NCBI RefSeq assembly: GCF_001017655.1
Contig: NZ_CP010904.1
Location: 2,850,001-2,882,000, forward strand
Direction of reading: 5' to 3'
Length of the DNA: 32,000 bases
From: Kiritimatiella glycovorans
GTDB taxonomy: Bacteria; Verrucomicrobiota; Kiritimatiellia; Kiritimatiellales; Kiritimatiellaceae
Shown: positions 2,728 through 9,642 of the stretch, piece by piece
How the letters are laid out: each line of letters opens with the position of its first letter
Position numbering within the stretch: position 1 is the stretch's first letter
Notes under the pieces: generated by a model
The model's input: the letters and a program-made list of their open reading frames with translations, nothing else
What the model was told of the DNA's origin: nothing
The model's database searches: none
Made by a program: the position numbers and the translations under genes

Positions 2728-3501
2728 TTACGCCCGCGCGCGACGGCGAAAGACGCAAAGGAGCGCAGCCGCACCCACAAAAAGCCCCACCGTCGCCGGC
2801 TCCGGGATGACTTCGATTCGGAGATTGTCGAAGGTGCCAGTGGTATTGCTAAGCGAATTGAACTGGAAAGTGCGGTCGGTGCCCGTGAGGTTCGACAAAA
2901 TCGTGGTTGGAGTAGCGTTCAGAGCGCTGCCGTTCTGGAAGAACTGCACGGTGGGATTCGCTCCGGTTTCGTCGACCGTAATTTCCCATGTGTTCACTCC
3001 GCTCACCGTCGAACTGAAATTGGTGCCCGAACCGTCCGCAAAATAAAACGATTTCGCCCCATTTCTTCGGATGAGCAAGCCGGCGCCGACATTTGCGTTG
3101 GCGGCACCAACAGCCACGTCCCCGAACCCAAATCCGATCCAGTCCCCGCTTGGACCAGAGGTATTGCTGAGTTCAAACGAAATGGTGTAGATTTCGCCGA
3201 CAAGCTCCGCCCCGAGATCACCGGCAAGCGTTTCCGAAGTGTCGGGTGTAAACGAACCTGCTCCGTCGATCACAACATTCGAACCGTCGAGCGAGATTGC
3301 CGCGCCGCCCGCCGCGGTATAGGCGTAGGGAGCGTTCGTGAGGGTCGTATTGGCCTGGCGCGCGGCTATATCGTTATTGAATCCGGCTGAGTTTACAGCC
3401 GTGGCGTCGAAGGTGTCCTCAAAGACCAGATTGCCCGATGCGGAGGAGGCGAGGAGCGACGCCAGAGCGAGAGAGAGAGAGAGCTTGGATGTCTTTTTCA
3501 T
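2728..3501 (-). CDS. PEP-CTERM sorting-domain secreted protein, a stand-alone copy of the module fused to the upstream-neighbour gene
   Basis: 257-aa ORF. The N-terminal signal peptide is MKKTSKLSLSLALASLLASSASG. The C-terminus VIPEPATVGLFVGAAALLCVFRRRARA has the PEP motif, a TM helix and a basic tail, which is the PEP-CTERM/exosortase signal. Confidence 0.85.
   Translation of the reverse strand: MKKTSKLSLSLALASLLASSASGNLVFEDTFDATAVNSAGFNNDIAARQANTTLTNAPYAYTAAGGAAISLDGSNVVIDGAGSFTPDTSETLAGDLGAELVGEIYTISFELSNTSGPSGDWIGFGFGDVAVGAANANVGAGLLIRRNGAKSFYFADGSGTNFSSTVSGVNTWEITVDETGANPTVQFFQNGSALNATPTTILSNLTGTDRTFQFNSLSNTTGTFDNLRIEVIPEPATVGLFVGAAALLCVFRRRARA
2857..3462. repeat. Copy B of the duplicated coding module
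   Basis: Aligns with 1-591. The homology extends into the signal-peptide coding part (ggaggaggcgaggagcgacgc versus ggaggaggcgaggaacgacgc). Confidence 0.9.
3469..3482. repeat. (GA)7/(CT)7 dinucleotide microsatellite inside the signal-peptide codons of the PEP-CTERM gene
   Basis: The plus strand reads gagagagagagaga. On the coding strand this is ctctctctctctctc, encoding LSLSL in KLSLSLALA, 6 codons after the start. Confidence 0.9.
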
Positions 3502-3806: not shown

Positions 3807-5729
3807 TCAAATGTTCCGGTCCGAGAACCAGGAACGGAGGACGTTCCCGTCGCCGTCGATCAGCTCGATGTTGCGGAGGGCGCTTGCGCCCATCGCACCC
3901 GGAGGATCGATCCGCAGCGATCCGATCGGACCGGCGTCCAGCGGCACCTCGAAGGTCTCCCACTTCCCGGCAGCATCCAAACGGACGGCCTCGAAGCTGC
4001 CCGCCCGGAACACTTCCTGCGGCCCGGCGGAGAAGACGAGAACGCCACCGAGGTTTTCCGAGCGGATCGAGAACCGAAGGGTGAGTCCCTCGCCTGAGAT
4101 CGGTTCGAAGCGGGTCATCACCCAGGGATCCCCGCCCAGCGATTCGAGCGCGAGCGCACCGCCATCGTCCAGCGACAGTTTGACCGGTCGCGGCGTGCGC
4201 CAGCCCTCGATCTCGACCGGGGCCACAGCGGGGTTTGCATTCGTCGGTTGCCCGGCATAGGCCGCCGCGAAGAGGGTCTCGGCCTCGGCGCGATCGGCGG
4301 CGGTCATGGTGAAGGAGGCCAGCCTCGGCACGTCCTGCTTTTGGACCCCGAATTCTTCCGGACGGTAGGCGGCCGGATTGAAGCGCGGATTGGGCGGGGG
4401 CACGACCGCTCCGGTTTCGCGCAGGTGGGCGGTGATCAGGGCATCCAGTTCCGCCACTTTTTCGGGATGCTCTGCGGCCAGGTTTTCGGTCTCCCCGATG
4501 TCTTCGGCGAGGTTGTAGAGCAGGTAGCGGTGGGCGCCGGCCTCCCCGTCGTGGAAGACGCGGATCAATTTCCAATCGCCGTGATGCACCGCCACCGAGG
4601 GCGGCATCCACTCGGGCACCCCCGGATCGTGGGGGAAATAGGTGATCATGCCGCCGGGCCGCTCCAGCTCGCCGCCTTCCAGCGCGGGCCGGATGTCGAT
4701 GCCGTCTACGGGATGGCCCTCCGGCAAATCCACCCCGAGGGCGTTGAGGAAGCTCGGATAGAGGTCGGTGCTTTGGATTCGCGCGTCGGTCCGACTGCCC
4801 GGCTCGACCACCCCGGGCCAGACCACGATGGCCGGCACCCGGATGCCGCCTTCGAAGATGGTGGCCTTGCCCCCGCGCAGCGGCCGGTTGTCGGTCGGGC
4901 GGGCGAGGAAGCCTTCGCCGTTCTCATCCCGCTCGAAGATCATGTTGTATTCGTTGCCGCCGTTATCGGAGAAAAACACGATGATCGTATGCTCCGCCTC
5001 GCCCGTTTCGTCGAGGGTATCCAGAAGGGTTCCGACGGCATCGTCGAGGGTCTCGACCATCGCCGCGTAGGTGGGCGAATCCTGGCCGCTGTCGATATCT
5101 TCGTCCGGATCGACGCGCCCGGCATACTTTTCCTTCAGCTCAGGCTTGGCGTCGAACGGGGCATGCACCGAGAACTGCCAGAACTGCAGGTAGAACGGCC
5201 GCTCGGCCGCGCTCTGTTCGCGAAGCCAAGCCGCCGCCTCGGAGGCCATCCGGTCTTCGATGTGCTCGCCGGGGCTGCCGCTGTCGTAATGCGCGTATCG
5301 CCACGGGGCGAGAAAGCTGCCGCCCGGACCGGGGCCGGGGTGCCGCGGGATATCGATCTCGAAGCCGTGGTCCATCGGCGCGAACGGGGGGTGCCCCAGA
5401 TGCCACTTGCCGAAATGGCCGGTCGCCCAGCCGCTGTCGCGCAGCAGCTTGCCAAGGGTGGGCAGGCGGGTGTCGAGCGGGCCCGCCGATTGGATGCCAA
5501 GAGCCTTTTTGCCCGGCGGGGCGCTCGCCTGAACTGCGGGACGCAGCGCGGGCACCTCCTGCTTGGTGTGCGCGGTCGGCGCGGTGATGCCATGCCTTGC
5601 CGGGGTCTGCCCGGTGAGAATGCTGGCCCGCGTCGGCGAGCACAACGGGCTGGCCGCGTAGGCGTCGGTGAAGACCATCCCGCGATCGGCGAGGCGCTCG
5701 ATATTCGGAGTCTCGTAAAGCTCGGTCGT
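3807..5729 (-). pseudogene. Formylglycine-dependent sulfatase (arylsulfatase A family) with an extra C-terminal beta-rich domain; 5'-truncated
   Basis: ORF 3807-5678 begins MVFTDAYAASPLCSPTRASILTGQ, which contains the C-x-P-x-R sulfatase signature. The frame stays open upstream only to the TGA at 5762-5760, giving ...TTELYETPNIERLADRG. The signal peptide and the N-terminal metal-binding DD block expected ~50-80 aa before the CxPxR motif are missing. Homology stops at 5729/5730, where repeat unit U1 starts. Confidence 0.7.
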
Positions 5730-6076
5730 TCTTCTGCGGGTCTGACCCCCGCTACATCTTCATTGTGAAGGACTTACATCCCACCTCAATCGGTTTCCTG
5801 CGCTTAGCAATCTTCTGCGGGTCTGACCCCCGCTACATCTTCATTGTGAAGGACTTACATCCCACCTCAATCGGTTTCCTGCGCTTAGGGCCTCAATTCC
5901 ATCGTCGGAAAATCTTCTGCGGGTCTGACCCCCGCTACATCTTCATTGTGAAGGACTTACATCCCACCTCAATCGGTTTCCTGCGCTTAGGGCCTCAATC
6001 TTCTGCGGGTCTGACCCCCGCTACATCTTCATTGTGAAGGACTTACATCCCACCTCAATCGGTTTCCTGCGCTTAG
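5730..6076. repeat. Four identical 78-nt tandem units carrying the last 16 codons, the stop and the 3' hairpin of the RAYT-like gene
   Basis: Units lie at 5730-5807, 5811-5888, 5913-5990 and 5999-6076. All read tcttctgcgggtctgacccccgctacatcttcattgtgaaggacttacatcccacctcaatcggtttcctgcgcttag. The linkers are caa (3 nt), ggcctcaattccatcgtcggaaaa (24 nt) and ggcctcaa (8 nt). The 8-nt and 24-nt linkers are pieces of the RAYT C-terminal coding sequence. Confidence 0.95.
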
Positions 6077-6832
6077 GGCCTCAATTCCATCGTCGGAAAA
6101 GATGTCGTAAGCTCCTCGCGCCTCACGAAGCGTCGCACATTCCTCGGCCTCTTCTATACGACAGGCGTCCACATCGATCCCGAACTCCCGTTTTACCCGC
6201 GCAATGTACGCAGGGCTTCCGAGCGCCAGTTTTTCGCTCCAATAATACTCACGGCTCAGCAACGAACCTCGTTCGCGGATTGCCGCATCCACACGCTCCC
6301 TTCGCCAGGCGCTCAGTTCCTCTTGATTAGATAACCCCGCCAGTTGCACCAGCAGGCTTCGGTCAATTCGCCCGTATCTCTTCGGTCTGCGCTCAAGCTC
6401 ATGGTACCCGCCAAAGGACCATTCCGAGGGATGCCTGACCACTCCGGCCCGAACCATATTCAGGTCGATATAGGTCATACAGCGCCTCAAGTGGGTGCCA
6501 TTTTCCACGGCCGTCGCGTGATAGCGGTCTTCCCAGAATGCTCCCTGGCGATGCTTACGCGCGTTATATTCCTGCGCCACACGGCCCGCCATAAGCTGCA
6601 TCGCGCGGGGAATGGCCATCCGGTTGCCGGAACCGTGTACCAGAAGATGGATGTGATTTGACGTCACCACGTAATTGAGCACCTGAAGCCCATATCGTTT
6701 TTTCGCCTCAAACAACCAGTGCATCCAACGCCGTCGGTCTCTCGCGAAACGAAACAGAAATTCGCGCTTGTGACACCGGTGCGTCAGGTGCCAGGTGTGA
6801 CCGGGAAGGTAGAAGCGGTGGGGGCGGACCAT
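6029..6832 (-). CDS. IS200/IS605-superfamily Y1 (HUH) transposase, REP-associated tyrosine transposase (RAYT)-like
   Basis: The ORF track gives 6029-6868 from a TTG; the first ATG is at 6832 (MVRPHRFYLPGHTWHLTHRCHKREFLF). VLNYVVTSNHIHLLV contains the HUH motif (H-I-H). MTYIDLNMVRAGVV matches the catalytic-Tyr Y-x-x-x-N-P-V-R-A-G block of COG1943 proteins. Inverted GC hairpins flank the gene. Confidence 0.8.
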   Translation of the reverse strand: MVRPHRFYLPGHTWHLTHRCHKREFLFRFARDRRRWMHWLFEAKKRYGLQVLNYVVTSNHIHLLVHGSGNRMAIPRAMQLMAGRVAQEYNARKHRQGAFWEDRYHATAVENGTHLRRCMTYIDLNMVRAGVVRHPSEWSFGGYHELERRPKRYGRIDRSLLVQLAGLSNQEELSAWRRERVDAAIRERGSLLSREYYWSEKLALGSPAYIARVKREFGIDVDACRIEEAEECATLREARGAYDIFSDDGIEALSAGNRLRWDVSPSQ

Positions 6833-6880
6833 GGCGTAACCTTGCCACCTGCCCCCCCTTGTCGTCAACGCGCCCGCGCT

Positions 6881-7106
6881 TAGAACTTCGTTTTTAGGGC
6901 CGTAATTGATCCCCTAAGACCAAACAAGCGATTTCAACACACGATTACTCATTCTATTTGAACCGCTTACGGGGGTCAGACCCCGTTTCACTATAGAACT
7001 TCGTTTTTAGGGCCGTAATTGATCCCCTAAGACCAAACAAGCGATTTCAACACACGATTACTCATTCTATTTGAACCGCTTACGGGGGTCAGACCCCGTT
7101 TCACTA
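6881..7106. repeat. Two identical 113-nt tandem units on the 5' side of the RAYT-like gene, each ending in the inverted hairpin
   Basis: 6881-6993 and 6994-7106 are identical (tagaacttcgtttttagggccgtaattgatcccc...ccgcttacgggggtcagaccccgtttcacta). The reverse complement of acgggggtcagaccccgt shares GGGTCTGACCCCCG with the hairpin in the left-hand units. Confidence 0.95.
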
Positions 7107-7889
7107 TTGCTCGATCCGACGCTTCAGGGCGCCGTTCAGCGACTCCACATCCCCGTTCTCATGGGGACTGTCCACTTGGATCAGACGGGGAACCATCTCG
7201 AAGTGATCCATCAGCTCCAGGTAGGCGCGGTTGTACGCCCGCGGTTCTCCGCTGGCCTCCGCCGGCCGGTGGGTCGCTGCGCTCGAATGATCCATCCAGT
7301 GCTCCGCCGGCACACGGCCCAGCCGCGTCAGCGCGTTCTGAATCCCCGTACGCAGCGCCACCAGGCTTTCGCTATGGCAGATGCTGGCCCATTCCCAGTT
7401 CGAGTAGGTCAGCACGTTGTGACACAACTGGTGGTCGAACGGTTCCCCGGCGATCGTGATCCCCAGCCGGTCCATGTGCGTGAAGTCTGTGGACATCCGC
7501 ACGCCCGGCCGGTGCTCCTGCGCGAAGTACACCTCCTGCTCGGGCCCCGAAAGCGCTCGCCATTCACGTACCCGCCGCTGAAACGTCCGCAGTTGACCCT
7601 CCTGATACTTACCCGCCCGCTCCCGGCACAGCCACTCGAACACCGTCTTGGCCTCCAGCTCCGGGCAGCCCTCGAACATCAGTCGGCACTCTTCCCAGTC
7701 CTCCGCGAACGGGTCCTCCCGGGTACGCCACCTGCGCTCAACCGGCATCTCTGAGGGCAGTTTCCCGCACCTCAGGTACTTCTGCGCCGTCTTACGGTCC
7801 AGATCGGCCCGCAACGCAGCCTTGGACACGTTCCCTGTCCTTTCGTATTCTTCCATCAGCTTCCTCACTTTCCGGTCCGGGGTGACCAT
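7104..7889 (-). pseudogene. DDE (rve-type) transposase, IS21-family-like IstA; apparently 3'-truncated at the repeat array
   Basis: 261-aa ORF with an N-terminal HTH-like region. Candidate catalytic residues lie in STDFTHM, HWMDHSSAAT and ENGDVESLN. The layout parallels IS21 IstA (DFGE ... L.YS ... GGVP..yDN). The ORF stops 8 codons after the putative catalytic E, exactly at the edge of the 113-nt repeat. No C-terminal domain or istB partner follows. The family assignment is from memory of motif patterns, not from a search. Confidence 0.5.
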
Positions 7890-7937: not shown

Positions 7938-7979
7938 TGGGGAAGTCTAATTGTCGTCACTGGGGAAGTGTAATTGTCG
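7938..7979. repeat. Two direct 19-nt repeats forming the probable terminus of the IS21-like element
   Basis: tggggaagtCtaattgtcg (7938-7956) and tggggaagtGtaattgtcg (7961-7979), with a 23-nt period, lie just upstream of the transposase RBS (aaggaggg) and start. Multiple subterminal repeats are a known feature of IS21-family ends. Confidence 0.4.
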
Positions 7980-7985
7980 CTGCGC

Positions 7986-8301
7986 ACGGGCGGCCGAGTT
8001 CAGCCCCGAGGCATACGCCCGGCAGGCGTTCGGCATCGTGGGCGGCGAGGAGCCGATCAGGGTCCGGCTGCTGTTCGAGCCGAAACTGGCCGTGTACATC
8101 ACCGAACGGCAGTGGCACCCCACCCAGGAGTTCCGAACGCGCCGGGACGGCCGTGTCGAGATGCGGCTGGAGACGACAGGACGCAAGGAACTGGTACGCT
8201 GGGTCCTGTCCTGGATGCCCGACGTGAAAGTGCTCGCCCCGAAGAGCCTGCGGGCTCGGATCGCGGAAAAGCTTCGGGATGGACTACGAGCACAGCAATG
8301 A
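7986..8301 (+). pseudogene. C-terminal fragment of a WYL-domain transcriptional regulator (YafY-like), 5'-truncated by the IS21-like element
   Basis: The ORF 7951-8301 tail reads ...PIRVRLLFEPKLAVYITERQWHPTQEFRTRRDGRVEMRLETTGRKELVRWVLSWMPDVKVLAPKSLRARIAEKL. This matches the conserved C-terminal pattern of WYL regulators (WHPSQ ... DG ... ElxrWiLsxG ... v.vLeP..Lr). The HTH and WYL N-terminal two-thirds are absent. The 5' boundary is approximate. Confidence 0.6.
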
Positions 8302-8483: not shown

Positions 8484-9389
8484 TCATGCCGCTCTGCATT
8501 TTGACTCCGTCTCCATCCCGAAGTACGCCTCATCGGGCGTTCGATCCCCGATCGATGAGTGCGGACGTTCGGCATTGTAGCGCTCCAGCCACGCCCCCGC
8601 GCCGCGCCCGGTTTCCCGGGGCGTTTCATAGCTTTTCAGGTAAACGTCTTCATATTTCAGACTCCACCACAGCCGCTCGATGAACACATTGTCCACCCAG
8701 CGGCCCGTCCCATCCATGCTGATTTTTAAGCCCTCGTGCTGTTTCATCTCCCTGATCCAATCCGTCGACGTGAACTGCGAGCCTTGATCGGTATTCATGA
8801 TCTCCGGCGCCCGCCCGGCCGTGGCCACCGCCGATCGAAAGGCCCGCAGGCAGAACGCGGTATCCATCGTGGTGCTCAGTTCCCACCCGAGCACTTTCCG
8901 GCTGTACCAGTCCATGACGGCCACCAGGTAGCAATACCCTCGCGGCATCGGGATATAGGTGATATCGGCGCACCAGACCTGATTCGGCCGCGTAACATCC
9001 ACTCCACGCAGCAAATACGGATAGATGCGATGCCCCTTGCCCGGTGCGCTGGTCCGCGGCCGCGGGCGGAGAGCCGAGATATGCGCGAGCCTCATCAGCC
9101 GGCGAAGCCGCTTTCGCCCCACGTTCAGCCCCTGTTCGCGCTTGAGTAATCGGCGCAGCCCCCGCGTCCCGAACGTCGGGAAACGCAGATGAAGTTCGTC
9201 GAGCATCCTCATAATCCGTAAGTCCGTGATCGTCGCCCTGGGCTCCGGCGGCGTCAACCGGTTCCGGTTGACGCCCAGCAGAGCACATTGGCGCCGCAGC
9301 GAGAGTTGAGCATCAGAAGGATCCACCAGAGCCTTCCTCACGGATCGATCCCCAACTCGACGCATTTTTTTCCATCCACTCCTTCTCAA
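8484..9389 (-). CDS. IS3-family transposase OrfB (DDE integrase core)
   Basis: The DDE residues are in the expected contexts: WCADITYIP, MNTDQGSQFTS and VFIERLWWSLKYE. The ORF overlaps orfA by 77 nt around an A7 run (9365-9371). Confidence 0.85.
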   Translation of the reverse strand: MRRSGWKKMRRVGDRSVRKALVDPSDAQLSLRRQCALLGVNRNRLTPPEPRATITDLRIMRMLDELHLRFPTFGTRGLRRLLKREQGLNVGRKRLRRLMRLAHISALRPRPRTSAPGKGHRIYPYLLRGVDVTRPNQVWCADITYIPMPRGYCYLVAVMDWYSRKVLGWELSTTMDTAFCLRAFRSAVATAGRAPEIMNTDQGSQFTSTDWIREMKQHEGLKISMDGTGRWVDNVFIERLWWSLKYEDVYLKSYETPRETGRGAGAWLERYNAERPHSSIGDRTPDEAYFGMETESKCRAA

Positions 9390-9642
9390 TCACCAGCTGA
9401 CCTACTTTTCGCTCCAGCCGCTCGCAGTTCTTTTCCAGCCCGCGCTTTTCTAGGTCCGGCGCGTTCTTGCGCTCAAAGAGATCGGCTGCGCCCTCTGTGA
9501 GCTCCGTCTTCCATCGAGTCACCATGGTCGGATGCACGTTGTTTTCCGCCGCGATCTCCGCCACGGTCTTGATGCCGCGCAACGCCTCCATCGCGATACG
9601 CGCCTTGAACTGCGCGCTGTGATTTCGTCTCGGCTTCTTCAT
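9313..9642 (-). CDS. IS3-family transposase OrfA (HTH)
   Basis: MKKPRRNHSAQFKARIAMEALRGIKTVAEIAAENNVHPTMVTRWKTEL is the typical IS3/IS911 OrfA helix-turn-helix. A leucine-zipper-like region follows. Confidence 0.85.
   Translation of the reverse strand: MKKPRRNHSAQFKARIAMEALRGIKTVAEIAAENNVHPTMVTRWKTELTEGAADLFERKNAPDLEKRGLEKNCERLERKVGQLVIEKEWMEKNASSWGSIREEGSGGSF

What the first reader, a model, noticed from the sequence alone, without database searches (positions are those of the whole stretch)
5730..7106. RAYT-like Y1 transposase whose two inverted hairpin flanks are each amplified into perfect tandem arrays (4 x 78 nt, 2 x 113 nt)
The HUH/Y1 transposase gene (6029-6832, minus) is bracketed by GC hairpins in inverted orientation. 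These are gcgggtctgacccccgc on the left and acgggggtcagaccccgt on the right, with the shared core GGGTCTGACCCCCG. That is the REP/RAYT (REPtron) layout. The unusual part is that the flanks are long, sequence-identical tandem units rather than single short REPs. Each left unit carries the last 16 codons, the stop codon and the hairpin of the transposase gene. All left units start at the same nucleotide (tcttctgcggg). Their right edges vary: 3, 24 or 8 nt of extra sequence, each ending in AA, and the 8-nt and 24-nt linkers are pieces of the transposase C-terminal coding sequence. A fixed cut next to a hairpin with a variable second end would fit repeated site-specific nicking or strand transfer by the HUH enzyme, or hairpin-stalled replication slippage. 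It does not fit classical IS transposition. Perfect identity between copies implies recent or ongoing activity. The array edges coincide exactly with the truncation points of a sulfatase gene and of an IS21-like transposase gene.
Basis: partly seen in the sequence, partly recalled or inferred. Interest (0 to 1): 0.7.

Follow-up and report, generated by a model that had tools for sequence, protein, structure and literature searches.

The report
Insertion sequence with stuttered, re-copied ends
A 1-kb mobile element driven by an HUH tyrosine transposase carries extra head-to-tail copies of both of its tips, and the same "stutter" appears at about a quarter of the ends of its relatives, leaving a natural footprint of how this little-studied enzyme family cuts and rejoins DNA.

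Summary
Left of the gene lie three extra exact copies of the element's end (78 nt + CAA, 102 and 86 nt). Right of it lies one extra 113-nt copy. All start at the same outermost nucleotide.

The protein is identical to a Kiritimatiella glycovorans "transposase". It is a class-2 Y1/HUH enzyme, closer to published TIR-associated tyrosine transposases (TIRYT, 34-35% identity) than to E. coli RAYT (24%).

Relatives (more than 7,700 proteins) sit in ~1-kb units bounded by inverted repeats with the core GGGGTCGGACC. One relative occurs with several different flanks, so the family behaves as an insertion sequence, not a REP system.

The new point is that tip "stutter" is a family trait. It occurs at 22% of 130 ends against 0.5% of control positions. 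It varies between copies of one element and is present where no hairpin can form.

Best explanation: the transposase nicks at the tip and holds the 5' end. It then rejoins that end to a 3'-OH that a polymerase has already extended into the element. This mechanism is inferred, not shown. Fusarium Helitrons with "multiple 5' termini" are the closest analogue.

Verdict: a known kind of element with an undescribed, mechanistically informative variant. The source genome could not be searched.

The parts
3807..5729 (-). Left flank: sulfatase gene lacking its 5' end. The reading frame runs right up to the array edge at 5729.
   Evidence: Pfam Sulfatase E 5.5e-45, with protein residue 6 aligned to profile position 25. 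NCBIfam arylsulfatase profile starts at position 29. No sulfatase N-terminus is found to the right.
5730..5810 (+). Outermost extra copy of the downstream (RE) end: the first 78 nt of the end plus untemplated CAA
   Evidence: Exact 78-nt prefix of 5999-..., then CAA where the template has GGC. TRF period 81.
5811..5912 (+). Second extra copy of the RE end: first 102 nt, ending ...GAAAA
   Evidence: Exact 102-nt prefix. TRF period 102.
5913..5998 (+). Third extra copy of the RE end: first 86 nt, ending ...CTCAA
   Evidence: Exact 86-nt prefix. TRF period 86.
5999..6028 (+). Resident RE terminus: 6-nt tip TCTTCT, palindrome GCGGGTCTGACCCCCGC (6005-6021) and spacer up to the stop codon. The imperfect terminal repeat continues about 108 nt into the gene's 3' end.
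   Evidence: the two ends align as an inverted repeat over ~108 nt. The other palindrome copies lie at 5736-5752, 5817-5833 and 5919-5935.
6029..6832 (-). Y1/HUH tyrosine transposase gene, 267 aa (HUH = H60-I-H62, Tyr121). There is a folded C-terminal domain. The last 26 residues are predicted disordered, and the final 15 of them are encoded inside the 78-nt unit.
   Evidence: Pfam PF01797. NCBIfam REP_Tyr_transpos 76.8 bits. PDB 4ER8 by sequence and by fold, E 3.4e-7. Residues invariant in 25 relatives. 100% identical to a K. glycovorans protein. Model pLDDT 81.
6881..6993 (-). Resident upstream (LE) end, read on the minus strand from 6993: 7-nt tip TAGTGAA, then palindrome ACGGGGTCTGACCCCCGT (plus-strand coordinates 6969-6986), then subterminal sequence
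6994..7106 (-). Extra outer copy of the LE end: the first 113 nt, 100% identical (palindrome at 7082-7099)
   Evidence: TRF period 113, 100% identity. Exact 113-nt prefix.
7107..7889 (-). Right flank: IS21-family transposase gene truncated at its 3' end by the array. The stop codon at 7104-7106 is supplied by the array.
   Evidence: NCBIfam transpos_IS21 166.5 bits, profile positions 2-241 of 294

Best explanation
SHOWN. The locus holds one copy of a ~1-kb insertion sequence of the TIR-flanked tyrosine-transposase type (TIRYT/'TIRtron', TnpAY1 subclass-2.1-like). It reads: tip, palindromic core GGGTCTGACCCCCG, a 267-aa Y1/HUH transposase gene, inverted core, tip. Both ends carry extra tandem copies that all begin at the outermost nucleotide of the element and run inward for different lengths (78, 102, 86 and 113 nt). 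The same 'end stutter' is a frequent, polymorphic trait of the whole protein family. It occurs equally at both ends.

INFERRED MECHANISM.
1. At each end the transposase nicks the strand on which the terminal repeat lies 3' of the cut. It becomes linked through its tyrosine to the 5' tip of the element.
2. The freed 3'-OH of the flank is extended by a host polymerase into the element for n nucleotides, sometimes adding a few untemplated bases.
3. When transposition is not completed, the enzyme resolves its phosphotyrosine bond onto this extended 3' end instead of the original one. The product is flank | end[1..n] | end[1..].
4. The looped-out extra copy is fixed at the next replication.

Each unit of a different length records a separate aborted event. 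Joining the tip to a 3'-OH further out in the flank would instead give an adjacent deletion. That may explain why the two flanks here are non-contiguous truncated genes. Perfect identity of the copies indicates recent activity.
For: Element and family:
- Pfam, NCBIfam, PDB and fold matches to Y1 enzymes.
- 34-35% identity (E 3e-25 and 4e-23) to published TIRYTs, against 24% to E. coli RAYT.
- Inverted core GGTCGGACC at about -115 and GGTCCGACC at about +25 in nearly all of 80 relatives' loci.
- Identical protein P0002 on ~960-bp units with 3 different right flanks. Two contigs begin and end exactly at the tips.

Stutter is specific and general:
- The tip 8-mer is repeated just outside the tip at 29 of 130 ends (31 of 80 loci) against 0.5% of random positions (binomial p ~1e-37).
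- Mirrored controls gave 0-1 of 137 inside the element and 0-1 of ~115 in the flank.
- By my count of the list, 17 of the 32 positive ends are upstream ends and 15 are downstream ends.
- The P0002 element carries 0, 2 or 4 extra tip copies in different contigs.
- The closest clade also stutters.

Against plain cut-and-join or slippage:
- 0-1 nt of microhomology, and units that are exact prefixes with three different lengths.
- Untemplated filler such as CAA, TAA, ATGCA or a 12-mer at roughly half the junctions I read by eye.
- A typical family terminal repeat has no stable hairpin.

Chemistry precedent:
- Y1 enzymes form a Tyr-5'P link plus a free 3'-OH, and any suitable attacking 3'-OH is joined to the cleaved 5' end in vitro, with a required 3' base (PMC8266576).
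- Here both templated junctions fall at AA although AA occupies only 7 of 129 positions.

Analogue: Fusarium Helitrons, also HUH elements, have 'multiple 5' termini' in which the first 31, 65, 73 or 85 nt are repeated (PMC5148889).

Not an artefact: the genome was assembled from PacBio RSII plus MiSeq reads (PMC5148204).
Against: - No biochemistry exists for this subfamily. Which strand is nicked cannot be read from duplex sequence, because every junction reads equally on both strands (A|T in this window).
- In REP/RAYT systems the GTAG tag lies 5' of the hairpin. Here GTAG lies 5' of the left-end hairpin on the inside-to-outside strand, which would put cleavage 3' of the hairpin. That is the opposite polarity to the model.
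- The base before inner tip copies (A in the window and in L003/L006) differs from the base at true insertion junctions of the P0002 element (G or T). This is not expected if one joining specificity ruled both reactions.
- No polymerase involvement has been demonstrated.
- The genome-wide copy number of the hairpin in K. glycovorans could not be checked, because the genome is absent from the searchable collections.
- The link between the arrays and the flank truncations is conjecture.
Confidence: 0.5

Rival explanations
1. Cut at the tip plus cuts at secondary internal sites on the same strand. The enzyme cleaves 3' of the hairpin at the tip and also at loosely specified sites further inside. 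This releases short single-stranded circles, or exchanges strands between sister copies. Re-integration at the tip cleavage site then gives tandem partial ends, as in IS608 peel-and-paste applied to a mini-element.
For: On the inside-to-outside strand the left end reads GTAG-hairpin-6 nt-cut, the geometry of a REP or of an IS608 right end. E. coli and Marinomonas TnpAREP cut both 5' and 3' of REPs and at 'discrete distant sites' defined by only a dinucleotide (PMC8266576). In the window, 5 of 7 junctions read N|TT on that strand.
Against: Inner boundaries in relatives fall at many different positions, even inside the 9-bp core and only 5-15 nt from the tip. L006 has four different positions within 17 nt. 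A sequence-guided HUH cut is unlikely to do this. Untemplated filler at about half the junctions I read by eye does not fit seamless cut-and-join. The sequences 5' of the supposed internal cuts (GGAA|, CATC|) do not resemble the tip (AAGA|).
Confidence: 0.2
2. Self-insertion followed by deletion. A second copy of the element inserts into, or right next to, the end of a resident copy. Transposase-mediated adjacent deletion then removes all but the first n nucleotides of one copy. Self-insertion was proposed for Helitrons with multiple 5' termini.
For: Self-insertion was proposed for the analogous Helitron structures (PMC5148889). Flank truncations at this locus show that deletions ending exactly at the tips do occur.
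Against: It needs one full insertion plus one precise deletion for every unit: four such pairs here, and up to four or more in L006 and L140. Apart from one adjacent MITE-like relative in L114, I saw no nested or tandem second copy in the ~90 loci, but this was not searched for systematically. Units as short as 5-10 nt would require deletions ending within a few bases of the tip every time.
Confidence: 0.1
3. A domesticated REP/RAYT system (REPtron) whose flanking REPs have been amplified into a BIME-like cluster. The hairpins would be members of a genome-wide REP family mobilised in trans by a single-copy RAYT.
For: The protein is nearest to E. coli TnpAREP among solved structures and scores just under the REP_Tyr_transpos cut-off. 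The same palindrome GGGGGTCTGACCCCC occurs as dispersed, GTAG-tagged REP-like hairpins in other phyla. One matches the window's end exactly over 24 nt, and one sits beside a TIRYT-like gene with solo copies elsewhere in that genome. REP clusters 'reiterated in tandem with flanking DNA of variable length' are known (PMC3733652).
Against: No copy of the motif lies outside the arrays in 32 kb, even with 2 mismatches or the relaxed family pattern. The units are not bare REPs. They are exact prefixes of the element's own end, including coding sequence. A close relative (P0002) moves as a whole ~1-kb unit. Published TIRYTs match better than RAYT.
Confidence: 0.1
4. Host replication slippage stalled at the terminal hairpins, with no role for the transposase.
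For: The window's tips can form 5-6 bp hairpins of -5.3 to -6.1 kcal/mol. Tandem duplications often arise by slippage.
Against: Junction microhomology is 0-1 nt. One boundary is always the exact element tip, which in relative P0002 was defined independently from copies with different flanks. The stutter is just as common in relatives whose terminal repeat does not fold better than shuffles. Duplications are absent just inside the core and in the flanks.
Confidence: 0.06
5. Assembly artefact: the arrays do not exist in the cell.
For: Perfectly identical short tandem units are a classic source of mis-assembly. I could not inspect reads.
Against: The published genome was closed with PacBio RSII (>10-kb library) plus MiSeq reads. 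The units have different lengths and unique junctions. Equivalent structures appear in many independent assemblies from JGI, NCBI, ENA and Logan.
Confidence: 0.03

Closest known systems
TIRYT / 'TIRtron' (TIR-associated tyrosine transposases; Di Nocera et al. 2013, PMC3733652) = TnpAY1 subclass 2.1 (Quentin et al. 2018, PMC6006769) = Bertels 'group 1' RAYTs
   Same: It is a Y1/HUH enzyme with a long C-terminal extension. The gene is flanked by terminal inverted repeats rather than classical REPs. The repeat motif fits GGGGWSAS (window: GGGGTCAG). It has 34-35% identity to published TIRYTs hch_1378 and sml_1152. The motifs NH[IV]H and WE match subclass 2.1.
   Different: It is a distinct subfamily, about 34% identical. 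The Y motif is YIDLNM rather than the class-2 signature Y---NP. No Pfam HTH domain is detected in the C-terminal domain. The literature describes subclass 2.1 as low-copy and 'not associated with typical IS features'. Here a relative moves as a whole 1-kb unit. Tandem partial re-copying of the tips is not mentioned in the only two papers of the searchable library that name TIRYTs.
REP/RAYT REPtrons and BIME/REP clusters (E. coli TnpAREP, PDB 4ER8; Corneloup et al. 2021, PMC8266576)
   Same: This is the nearest solved structure. It shares the HUH/Tyr chemistry with a Tyr-5'P intermediate that any suitable 3'-OH can resolve. The palindromic motifs flank the gene in inverted orientation. REP clusters can be reiterated in tandem with variable flanking DNA.
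   Different: The score is below NCBIfam's RAYT cut-off. No dispersed REP family is seen in the window. The repeated units are prefixes of the element's own end, not free REPs. The family is mobile as gene plus ends.
IS200/IS605 family (IS608, ISDra2 TnpA)
   Same: It has the Y1 HUH fold (Foldseek E ~2e-3) and short terminal or subterminal palindromes. No target-site duplication is evident.
   Different: The IS200 model scores 21.7 against a cut-off of 55. The Y---Q motif is absent. The ends are inverted rather than in the same orientation on one strand. The protein is twice as long. The typical family repeat does not form a stable hairpin.
Helitrons with 'multiple 5' termini' (FoHeli elements of Fusarium, PMC5148889; maize Helitrons, PMC3288121, title and term counts only)
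   Same: These are HUH-transposase elements in which the first n nucleotides of the nicked 5' terminus are repeated in tandem (31, 65, 73 or 85 nt). They show the same geometry: a fixed outer start, a variable inner end, and different versions in different genomes.
   Different: They are eukaryotic RepHel enzymes with two tyrosines and a helicase. Their ends are asymmetric and only the 5' terminus is affected. Here both ends stutter, on opposite strands. The mechanism proposed there was self-insertion.
Nick-primed replication by Rep proteins and relaxases (rolling-circle plasmids, AAV terminal resolution)
   Same: The proposed steps match: an HUH nick, the enzyme held on the 5' end, the 3'-OH used as a primer, and rejoining to a newly made 3' end.
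   Different: This is analogy only. No replication origin function or helicase partner is known for this element.

Membership tests
Y1 HUH single-strand endonuclease/transposase superfamily (PF01797) | HUH motif and catalytic Tyr on the Y1 fold | tested here: met
   Pfam Y1_Tnp E 1.9e-11, above cut-off. H60, H62 and Y121 are invariant in 25 relatives. They align to the HMH and Tyr of 4ER8. Fold match to 4ER8 at E 3.4e-7, TM 0.70.
REP/RAYT (REPtron) | Protein reaches the curated RAYT model cut-off | tested here: not met
   NF047646 REP_Tyr_transpos scores 76.8 bits against a cut-off of 80, a near miss.
REP/RAYT (REPtron) | Gene flanked by REP hairpins in inverted orientation | tested here: met
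   GCGGGTCTGACCCCCGC on the left and its inverted counterpart on the right. The hairpins fold at -5.3 to -6.1 kcal/mol.
REP/RAYT (REPtron) | The flanking palindrome belongs to an abundant family dispersed through the genome | not testable with these tools
   The source genome is absent from the searchable collections. Within the 32-kb window there are no copies outside the arrays.
REP/RAYT (REPtron) | Single-copy, domesticated gene that does not move with its flanks | tested here: not met
   Identical protein P0002 sits on ~960-bp units with at least 3 different flanks, and some contigs end exactly at the tips. Many relatives sit on ~1-kb contigs. In Geobacter the gene is single-copy in a fixed context, so behaviour varies by lineage.
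TIRYT / TIRtron (TnpAY1 subclass 2.1) | Sequence relatedness to published TIRYTs exceeding that to RAYTs | tested here: met
   BLASTP: hch_1378 34%, E 3e-25. sml_1152 35%, E 4e-23. aba_2776 29% over 220 aa. E. coli RAYT 24%, E 2e-8.
TIRYT / TIRtron (TnpAY1 subclass 2.1) | Gene flanked by terminal inverted repeats sharing GGGGWSAS | tested here: met
   The window has GGGGTCAG. The two ends align as an imperfect inverted repeat over ~108 nt. The family consensus TGGGGTCGGACCAAGCTAAC matches 7 of 8 positions.
TIRYT / TIRtron (TnpAY1 subclass 2.1) | Class-2 signature motifs (HuH NH[VYF]H, W[EQ], Y---NP) and a C-terminal HTH-like extension | tested here: inconclusive
   NHIH and WE are present. The Y motif is YIDLNM, with M nearly invariant where class 2 has P (compared with PMC6006769 Table 1). 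A folded C-terminal domain is predicted, with pLDDT of about 76-98 over residues 150-240, but no Pfam HTH hit was found.
IS200/IS605 | TnpA reaching the IS200 model, Y---Q motif, ~150 aa | tested here: not met
   NF033573 scores 21.7 bits against a cut-off of 55. The motif is YIDLN, and the protein is 267 aa.
IS200/IS605 | Left- and right-end hairpins in the same orientation on one strand | tested here: not met
   The ends are inverted, both in the window and across the family (central base G at the upstream end, C at the downstream end).
Helitron / IS91 rolling-circle transposons | Rep with two tyrosines or a fused helicase, and asymmetric ends | tested here: not met
   There is a single Y1 domain with no helicase, and the ends are symmetric inverted repeats. 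Only the end-duplication phenotype is shared.

The most novel reading that the evidence does not exclude
TIR-flanked Y1 transposases would act symmetrically. They would nick the 5' side of each terminal repeat on opposite strands, stay attached to both 5' tips, and let the flank 3'-OH ends prime strand-displacement synthesis into the element. This would be a nick-primed 'copy-out' mode, akin to parvovirus terminal resolution and unlike the same-strand peel-and-paste of IS200/IS605. The stuttered tips would then be a natural, sequence-readable record of aborted initiations. Such a record could be mined across thousands of genomes to measure transposase activity and joining specificity.
Probability: 0.25. 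Interest if true: 0.75.

Novelty: new variant of a known kind. Interest (0 to 1): 0.58.

Why it matters
Class-2 Y1 enzymes occur in about a quarter of bacterial species, and subclass 2.1 in about 15% of strains (PMC6006769). In the literature I could search, no transposition mechanism has been shown for the TIR-flanked members. Published surveys describe them as low-copy genes without typical IS features.

This locus and roughly 90 related loci show three things. At least this subfamily can move as a whole ~1-kb insertion sequence. Its exact termini can be read from the DNA. Its enzyme leaves a characteristic scar: tandem prefixes of the tip, on both ends.

That scar restricts the possible chemistry. 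If the usual HUH 5'-phosphotyrosine rule holds, the enzyme must be attached to the element's 5' tips on opposite strands. The scar also links a bacterial IS to the unexplained 'multiple 5' termini' of Helitrons. It suggests simple experiments.

It is also a practical warning for annotation. The arrays create spurious ORFs (for example 5765-6037) and truncate neighbouring genes.

Tried and rejected
(1) Exact-protein look-ups for the window gene and for its identical database twin P0001 found no contig.

My own estimate of the random expectation was about 70. None came from Kiritimatiella, so the source genome is not searchable and the hairpin's genome-wide copy number stays unknown.

(3) A first regular expression for the core was too strict and found almost nothing in relatives. 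It was replaced by upstream-versus-downstream local alignment and the looser pattern GGTCNN[AG]CC.

(4) An automatic parser of stutter units is noisy for 5-mers far from the tip. Only immediate tandem cases and the k-mer test with controls were used for the claims.

(5) A universal rule for the base before each tip copy was rejected. It is A in the window and in L003/L006, but G/C in L103 and T/C in L161/L163.

(6) Unequal crossing-over as the source of the left array was rejected, because the three extra units have three different lengths.

(7) Nothing identified the C-terminal domain. Pfam gave no hit there, and the whole-protein Foldseek search against the PDB matched only the catalytic domain.

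(8) tblastn of Y1 proteins against the 66 motif-bearing loci found a gene in only one, L021.
Full report
**1. Observation**

The sequence at 5730-7106 is as described. Tandem Repeats Finder gives periods of 81, 102 and 86 nt at 5730-6085 and of 113 nt at 6881-7107, all at 100% identity.

A script showed that the left units are exact prefixes of the resident element end that starts at 5999. They are 78 nt followed by an untemplated CAA, then 102 nt, then 86 nt. The right outer unit (6994-7106) is an exact 113-nt prefix of the resident end read on the minus strand. Microhomology at the breakpoints is 0-1 nt.

The 14-mer GGGTCTGACCCCCG occurs six times, four on the plus strand and two on the minus strand, and only in the arrays. 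Shuffles gave 0.42 expected matches. A relaxed family pattern adds no convincing extra copy in the 32 kb.

As ssDNA the tips fold into 5-6-bp hairpins of -5.3 to -6.1 kcal/mol.

The left edge abuts a sulfatase gene lacking its N-terminus. The right edge abuts an IS21-family transposase gene cut at profile position 241 of 294. The missing sulfatase start is not found further right.

**2. The protein**

ORF 6029-6832(-) encodes 267 aa. These matches place it:
- It matches Pfam Y1_Tnp.
- It scores 76.8 bits on NCBIfam REP_Tyr_transpos (cut-off 80) and 21.7 on the IS200 model (cut-off 55).
- Among solved structures it matches only E. coli TnpAREP by sequence (4ER8, E 1.7e-4), with the HUH and Tyr aligned.
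- An AlphaFold model (pLDDT 81) matches 4ER8 best (E 3.4e-7, TM 0.70), then the IS608 and ISDra2 TnpA structures.

The last 26 residues are predicted disordered. The final 15 of them are encoded inside the repeated 78-nt unit.

The protein is 100% identical to a 'transposase' of Kiritimatiella glycovorans. More than 7,700 homologues of ~265 aa at about 50-58% identity occur in many phyla, and many lie on ~1-kb contigs. H60, H62, Y121, W100 and N125 are invariant in 25 relatives.

Against sequences published as TIR-associated tyrosine transposases (supplement of PMC3733652) it shows 34-35% identity (E 3e-25 and 4e-23). Against E. coli RAYT it shows 24%.

Its motifs NHIH and WE fit TnpAY1 subclass 2.1 of Quentin et al. 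Its Y motif is YIDLNM rather than Y---NP.

**3. The element**

Protein P0002 (58% identical) is encoded on ten contigs. They share a ~960-bp unit that runs from CATAGTCGGGTCGGACC... to ...GGTCCGACCCCAATGT. They diverge immediately outside it into three different right flanks. Two contigs begin and end at these tips. The unit is therefore mobile and its termini are defined.

In 80 further loci from metagenomes, nearly all genes have GGTCGGACC about 115 nt upstream and the inverted GGTCCGACC about 25 nt downstream. The consensus is TGGGGTCGGACCAAGCTAAC.

A Geobacter homologue shows the same ends but sits in one fixed context.

The window's array boundaries lie 6-7 nt outside the palindrome. That is the same geometry as the independently defined tips of the P0002 element. 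The window's two ends align as an imperfect inverted repeat over ~108 nt.

This is the 'TIRtron' layout of Di Nocera et al. (TIR consensus GGGGWSAS). Quentin et al. equate it with subclass 2.1. In the searchable library only these two papers mention TIRYTs.

**4. End stutter is a family trait**

Contigs of the same P0002 element carry 0 extra tip copies (L001, L007-L009), 2 (L003: 20 and 57 nt, each followed by TAA) or 4 (L006: 15, 11, 12 and 8 nt with short fillers). All start at CATAGTC.

Similar nested copies occur at upstream ends (L085, L126, L131, L148, L149) and at downstream ends (L103, L140). They also occur in the closest clade (L161/L162 and L163).

The effect was quantified with a k-mer test:

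| Position tested | 8-mer repeated nearby |
|---|---|
| Element tip, looking just outside it (within 60 nt) | 29 of 130 ends (31 of 80 loci) |
| Random positions in the same loci | 0.5% (binomial p ~1e-37) |
| Anchors just inside the core | 0-1 of 137 |
| Anchors 70-100 nt out in the flank | 0-1 of ~115 |

By my count of the list, 17 of the 32 positive ends are upstream ends and 15 are downstream ends.

Unit lengths range from about 5 to 113 nt. About half of the junctions I read by eye carry 1-12 untemplated bases.

The consensus family repeat does not fold better than shuffled sequence (-1.3 kcal/mol).

The window's arrays are therefore the longest-unit, most recent (100% identical) example of a general property.

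**5. Mechanism**

What is shown:
- Every extra unit begins at the element's outermost nucleotide, in direct orientation, at either end.
- Inner ends vary from unit to unit.
- Junctions lack microhomology and often carry filler.
- The trait is polymorphic among copies of one element.
- It does not depend on a stable hairpin.

These facts point to an event that starts at the transposase's cleavage site and involves DNA synthesis.

Y1 enzymes cleave to give a 5'-phosphotyrosine link and a free 3'-OH. In vitro, TnpAREP joins an added 'attacking' 3'-OH oligonucleotide to the cleaved 5' end, and requires a particular 3' base to do so (PMC8266576).

My preferred reading (inference) has four steps:
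1. The enzyme nicks 5' of each terminal repeat, on opposite strands, and holds the 5' tip.
2. A host polymerase extends the flank 3'-OH into the element.
3. The enzyme resolves onto that extended end, giving flank | end[1..n] | end.
4. The looped-out copy is fixed at the next replication.

The three left units of different length would then be three separate events. They cannot be unequal crossing-over of a single unit.

In the window both templated junctions fall at AA, although AA fills only 7 of 129 positions of the end. The third junction has CAA added, and the right flank also ends in AA. This hints at a joining preference for ...A|T, but the rule is not universal in relatives.

With HUH chemistry, the opposite nick polarity would duplicate flank sequence rather than element tips. 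The arrays therefore argue that the tyrosine is attached to the element's 5' ends at both termini. That differs from IS608, where both cuts are on one strand.

Joining a tip to a more distant 3'-OH would delete flank DNA. This could explain why the two flanks here are unrelated truncated genes, but it is conjecture.

**6. Rivals**

(a) Cuts at the tip plus loosely specified internal sites, with mini-circles or sister exchange.
- For: the GTAG-hairpin-cut geometry on the inside-to-outside strand, and the N|TT junctions.
- Against: the scatter of inner boundaries in relatives, and the filler bases.

(b) Self-insertion plus precise deletion, as proposed for Helitrons. It needs two rare events per unit. 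Apart from one adjacent MITE-like relative in L114, I saw no nested or tandem second copy in the loci examined, although I did not search for them systematically.

(c) A true REP/RAYT system with a BIME-like cluster.
- For: the palindrome GGGGGTCTGACCCCC is a dispersed REP-like hairpin in other phyla. In Acidimicrobiales genomes it is GTAG-tagged, and one copy matches the window's end exactly over 24 nt. One Dojkabacteria genome has a TIRYT-like gene beside the motif and solo copies elsewhere.
- Against: the window has no dispersed copy, and the units are prefixes of the element's own end.

(d) Hairpin slippage, which is disfavoured for the reasons given in sections 4 and 5.

(e) Assembly artefact. 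This is unlikely, because the genome was closed with PacBio RSII plus MiSeq reads (PMC5148204) and equivalent structures recur in independent assemblies.

**7. Comparison and novelty**

The element is a new member of a known but barely studied kind (TIRYT, subclass-2.1-like).

Tandem re-copying of both tips, and its high frequency across the family, is not described in the two papers that treat these elements. They note only that some TIR repeats occur as dimers or clusters.

The nearest described phenomenon is the 'multiple 5' termini' of Fusarium Helitrons, where the first 31-85 nt are repeated and differ between strains (PMC5148889).

I therefore rate this a new variant of a known kind, of moderate to good interest. 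Its value lies in the mechanistic constraint and the testable predictions, not in a new class of system.

**8. Limits**

- The source genome could not be searched.
- The nicked strand and the role of a polymerase are inferred.
- Most related loci come from short-read metagenome assemblies.
- The counts use simple k-mer criteria.

Noticed in passing
L114, about 123-355 nt downstream of the transposase stop codon: A ~235-bp unit is bounded by an inverted pair of family repeats (GGGGTCGGGCCAAGCTAA ... GGCCCGACCCC). It has remnants of the subterminal motifs but no gene. It looks like a miniature non-autonomous (MITE-like) derivative sitting next to a full element.
   Followed up: partly
L014-L079 (genome scan); e.g. 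L059 3121-3171, L047 893-911, L024 1049-1096, L021 7200-7772: The palindrome GGGGGTCTGACCCCC recurs as a dispersed REP-like hairpin in distant phyla. In Acidimicrobiales MAGs it carries GTAG...CTAC feet, and in L047 it matches the window's end exactly over 24 nt. In a Saccharibacteria MAG it forms inverted doublets. In several Bacillus/Neobacillus genomes it lies next to TTAACG-rich repeats. In a Dojkabacteria MAG it lies 55 nt upstream of a TIRYT-like gene, with two solo copies elsewhere.
   Followed up: partly
window 6032-6110 and 6881-6925; family loci at about -60..-25 upstream of the start codon and in the last ~50 nt of the gene: A second conserved inverted motif (…CTTAG…TTTTnGGGnCAAAA…) lies near the start and inside the 3' end of the gene across the family. 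The conserved C-terminal peptide (LS..N...W) lies in a tail predicted to be disordered. That conservation may therefore reflect a constraint on the DNA of the element's end rather than on the protein.
   Followed up: no
window 7951-8301 (+): A 116-aa ORF lies between the IS21 fragment and the IS3 element. It has no NCBIfam hit and starts abruptly, so it is possibly another gene fragment in this IS-rich patch.
   Followed up: partly
window 8484-9642 (-): An IS3-family element has overlapping orfA (9313-9642) and orfB (8484-9389). Together with the IS21 fragment and the tyrosine-transposase element it forms a 4-kb cluster of mobile-element DNA beside sulfatase and uronate-isomerase genes.
   Followed up: partly
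window 5765-6037 (+) and 6034-6330 (+): Spurious ORFs of 90 and 98 aa are created by the repeated units (MKDLHPTSIGFLRL... repeated). A gene caller could annotate them as proteins.
   Followed up: no
L148 and L113, 25-60 nt outside the upstream core: Outside the current tip there is a stuttered relic of a different, older-looking tip (GAAAATC GAAAATCGGGG). Successive generations of ends may pile up at one site.
   Followed up: no
window 2728-3501 (-): This ORF ends with a PEP-CTERM-like sorting signal (VIPEPATVGLFVGAAALLCVFRRRARA). It has no NCBIfam hit.
   Followed up: no
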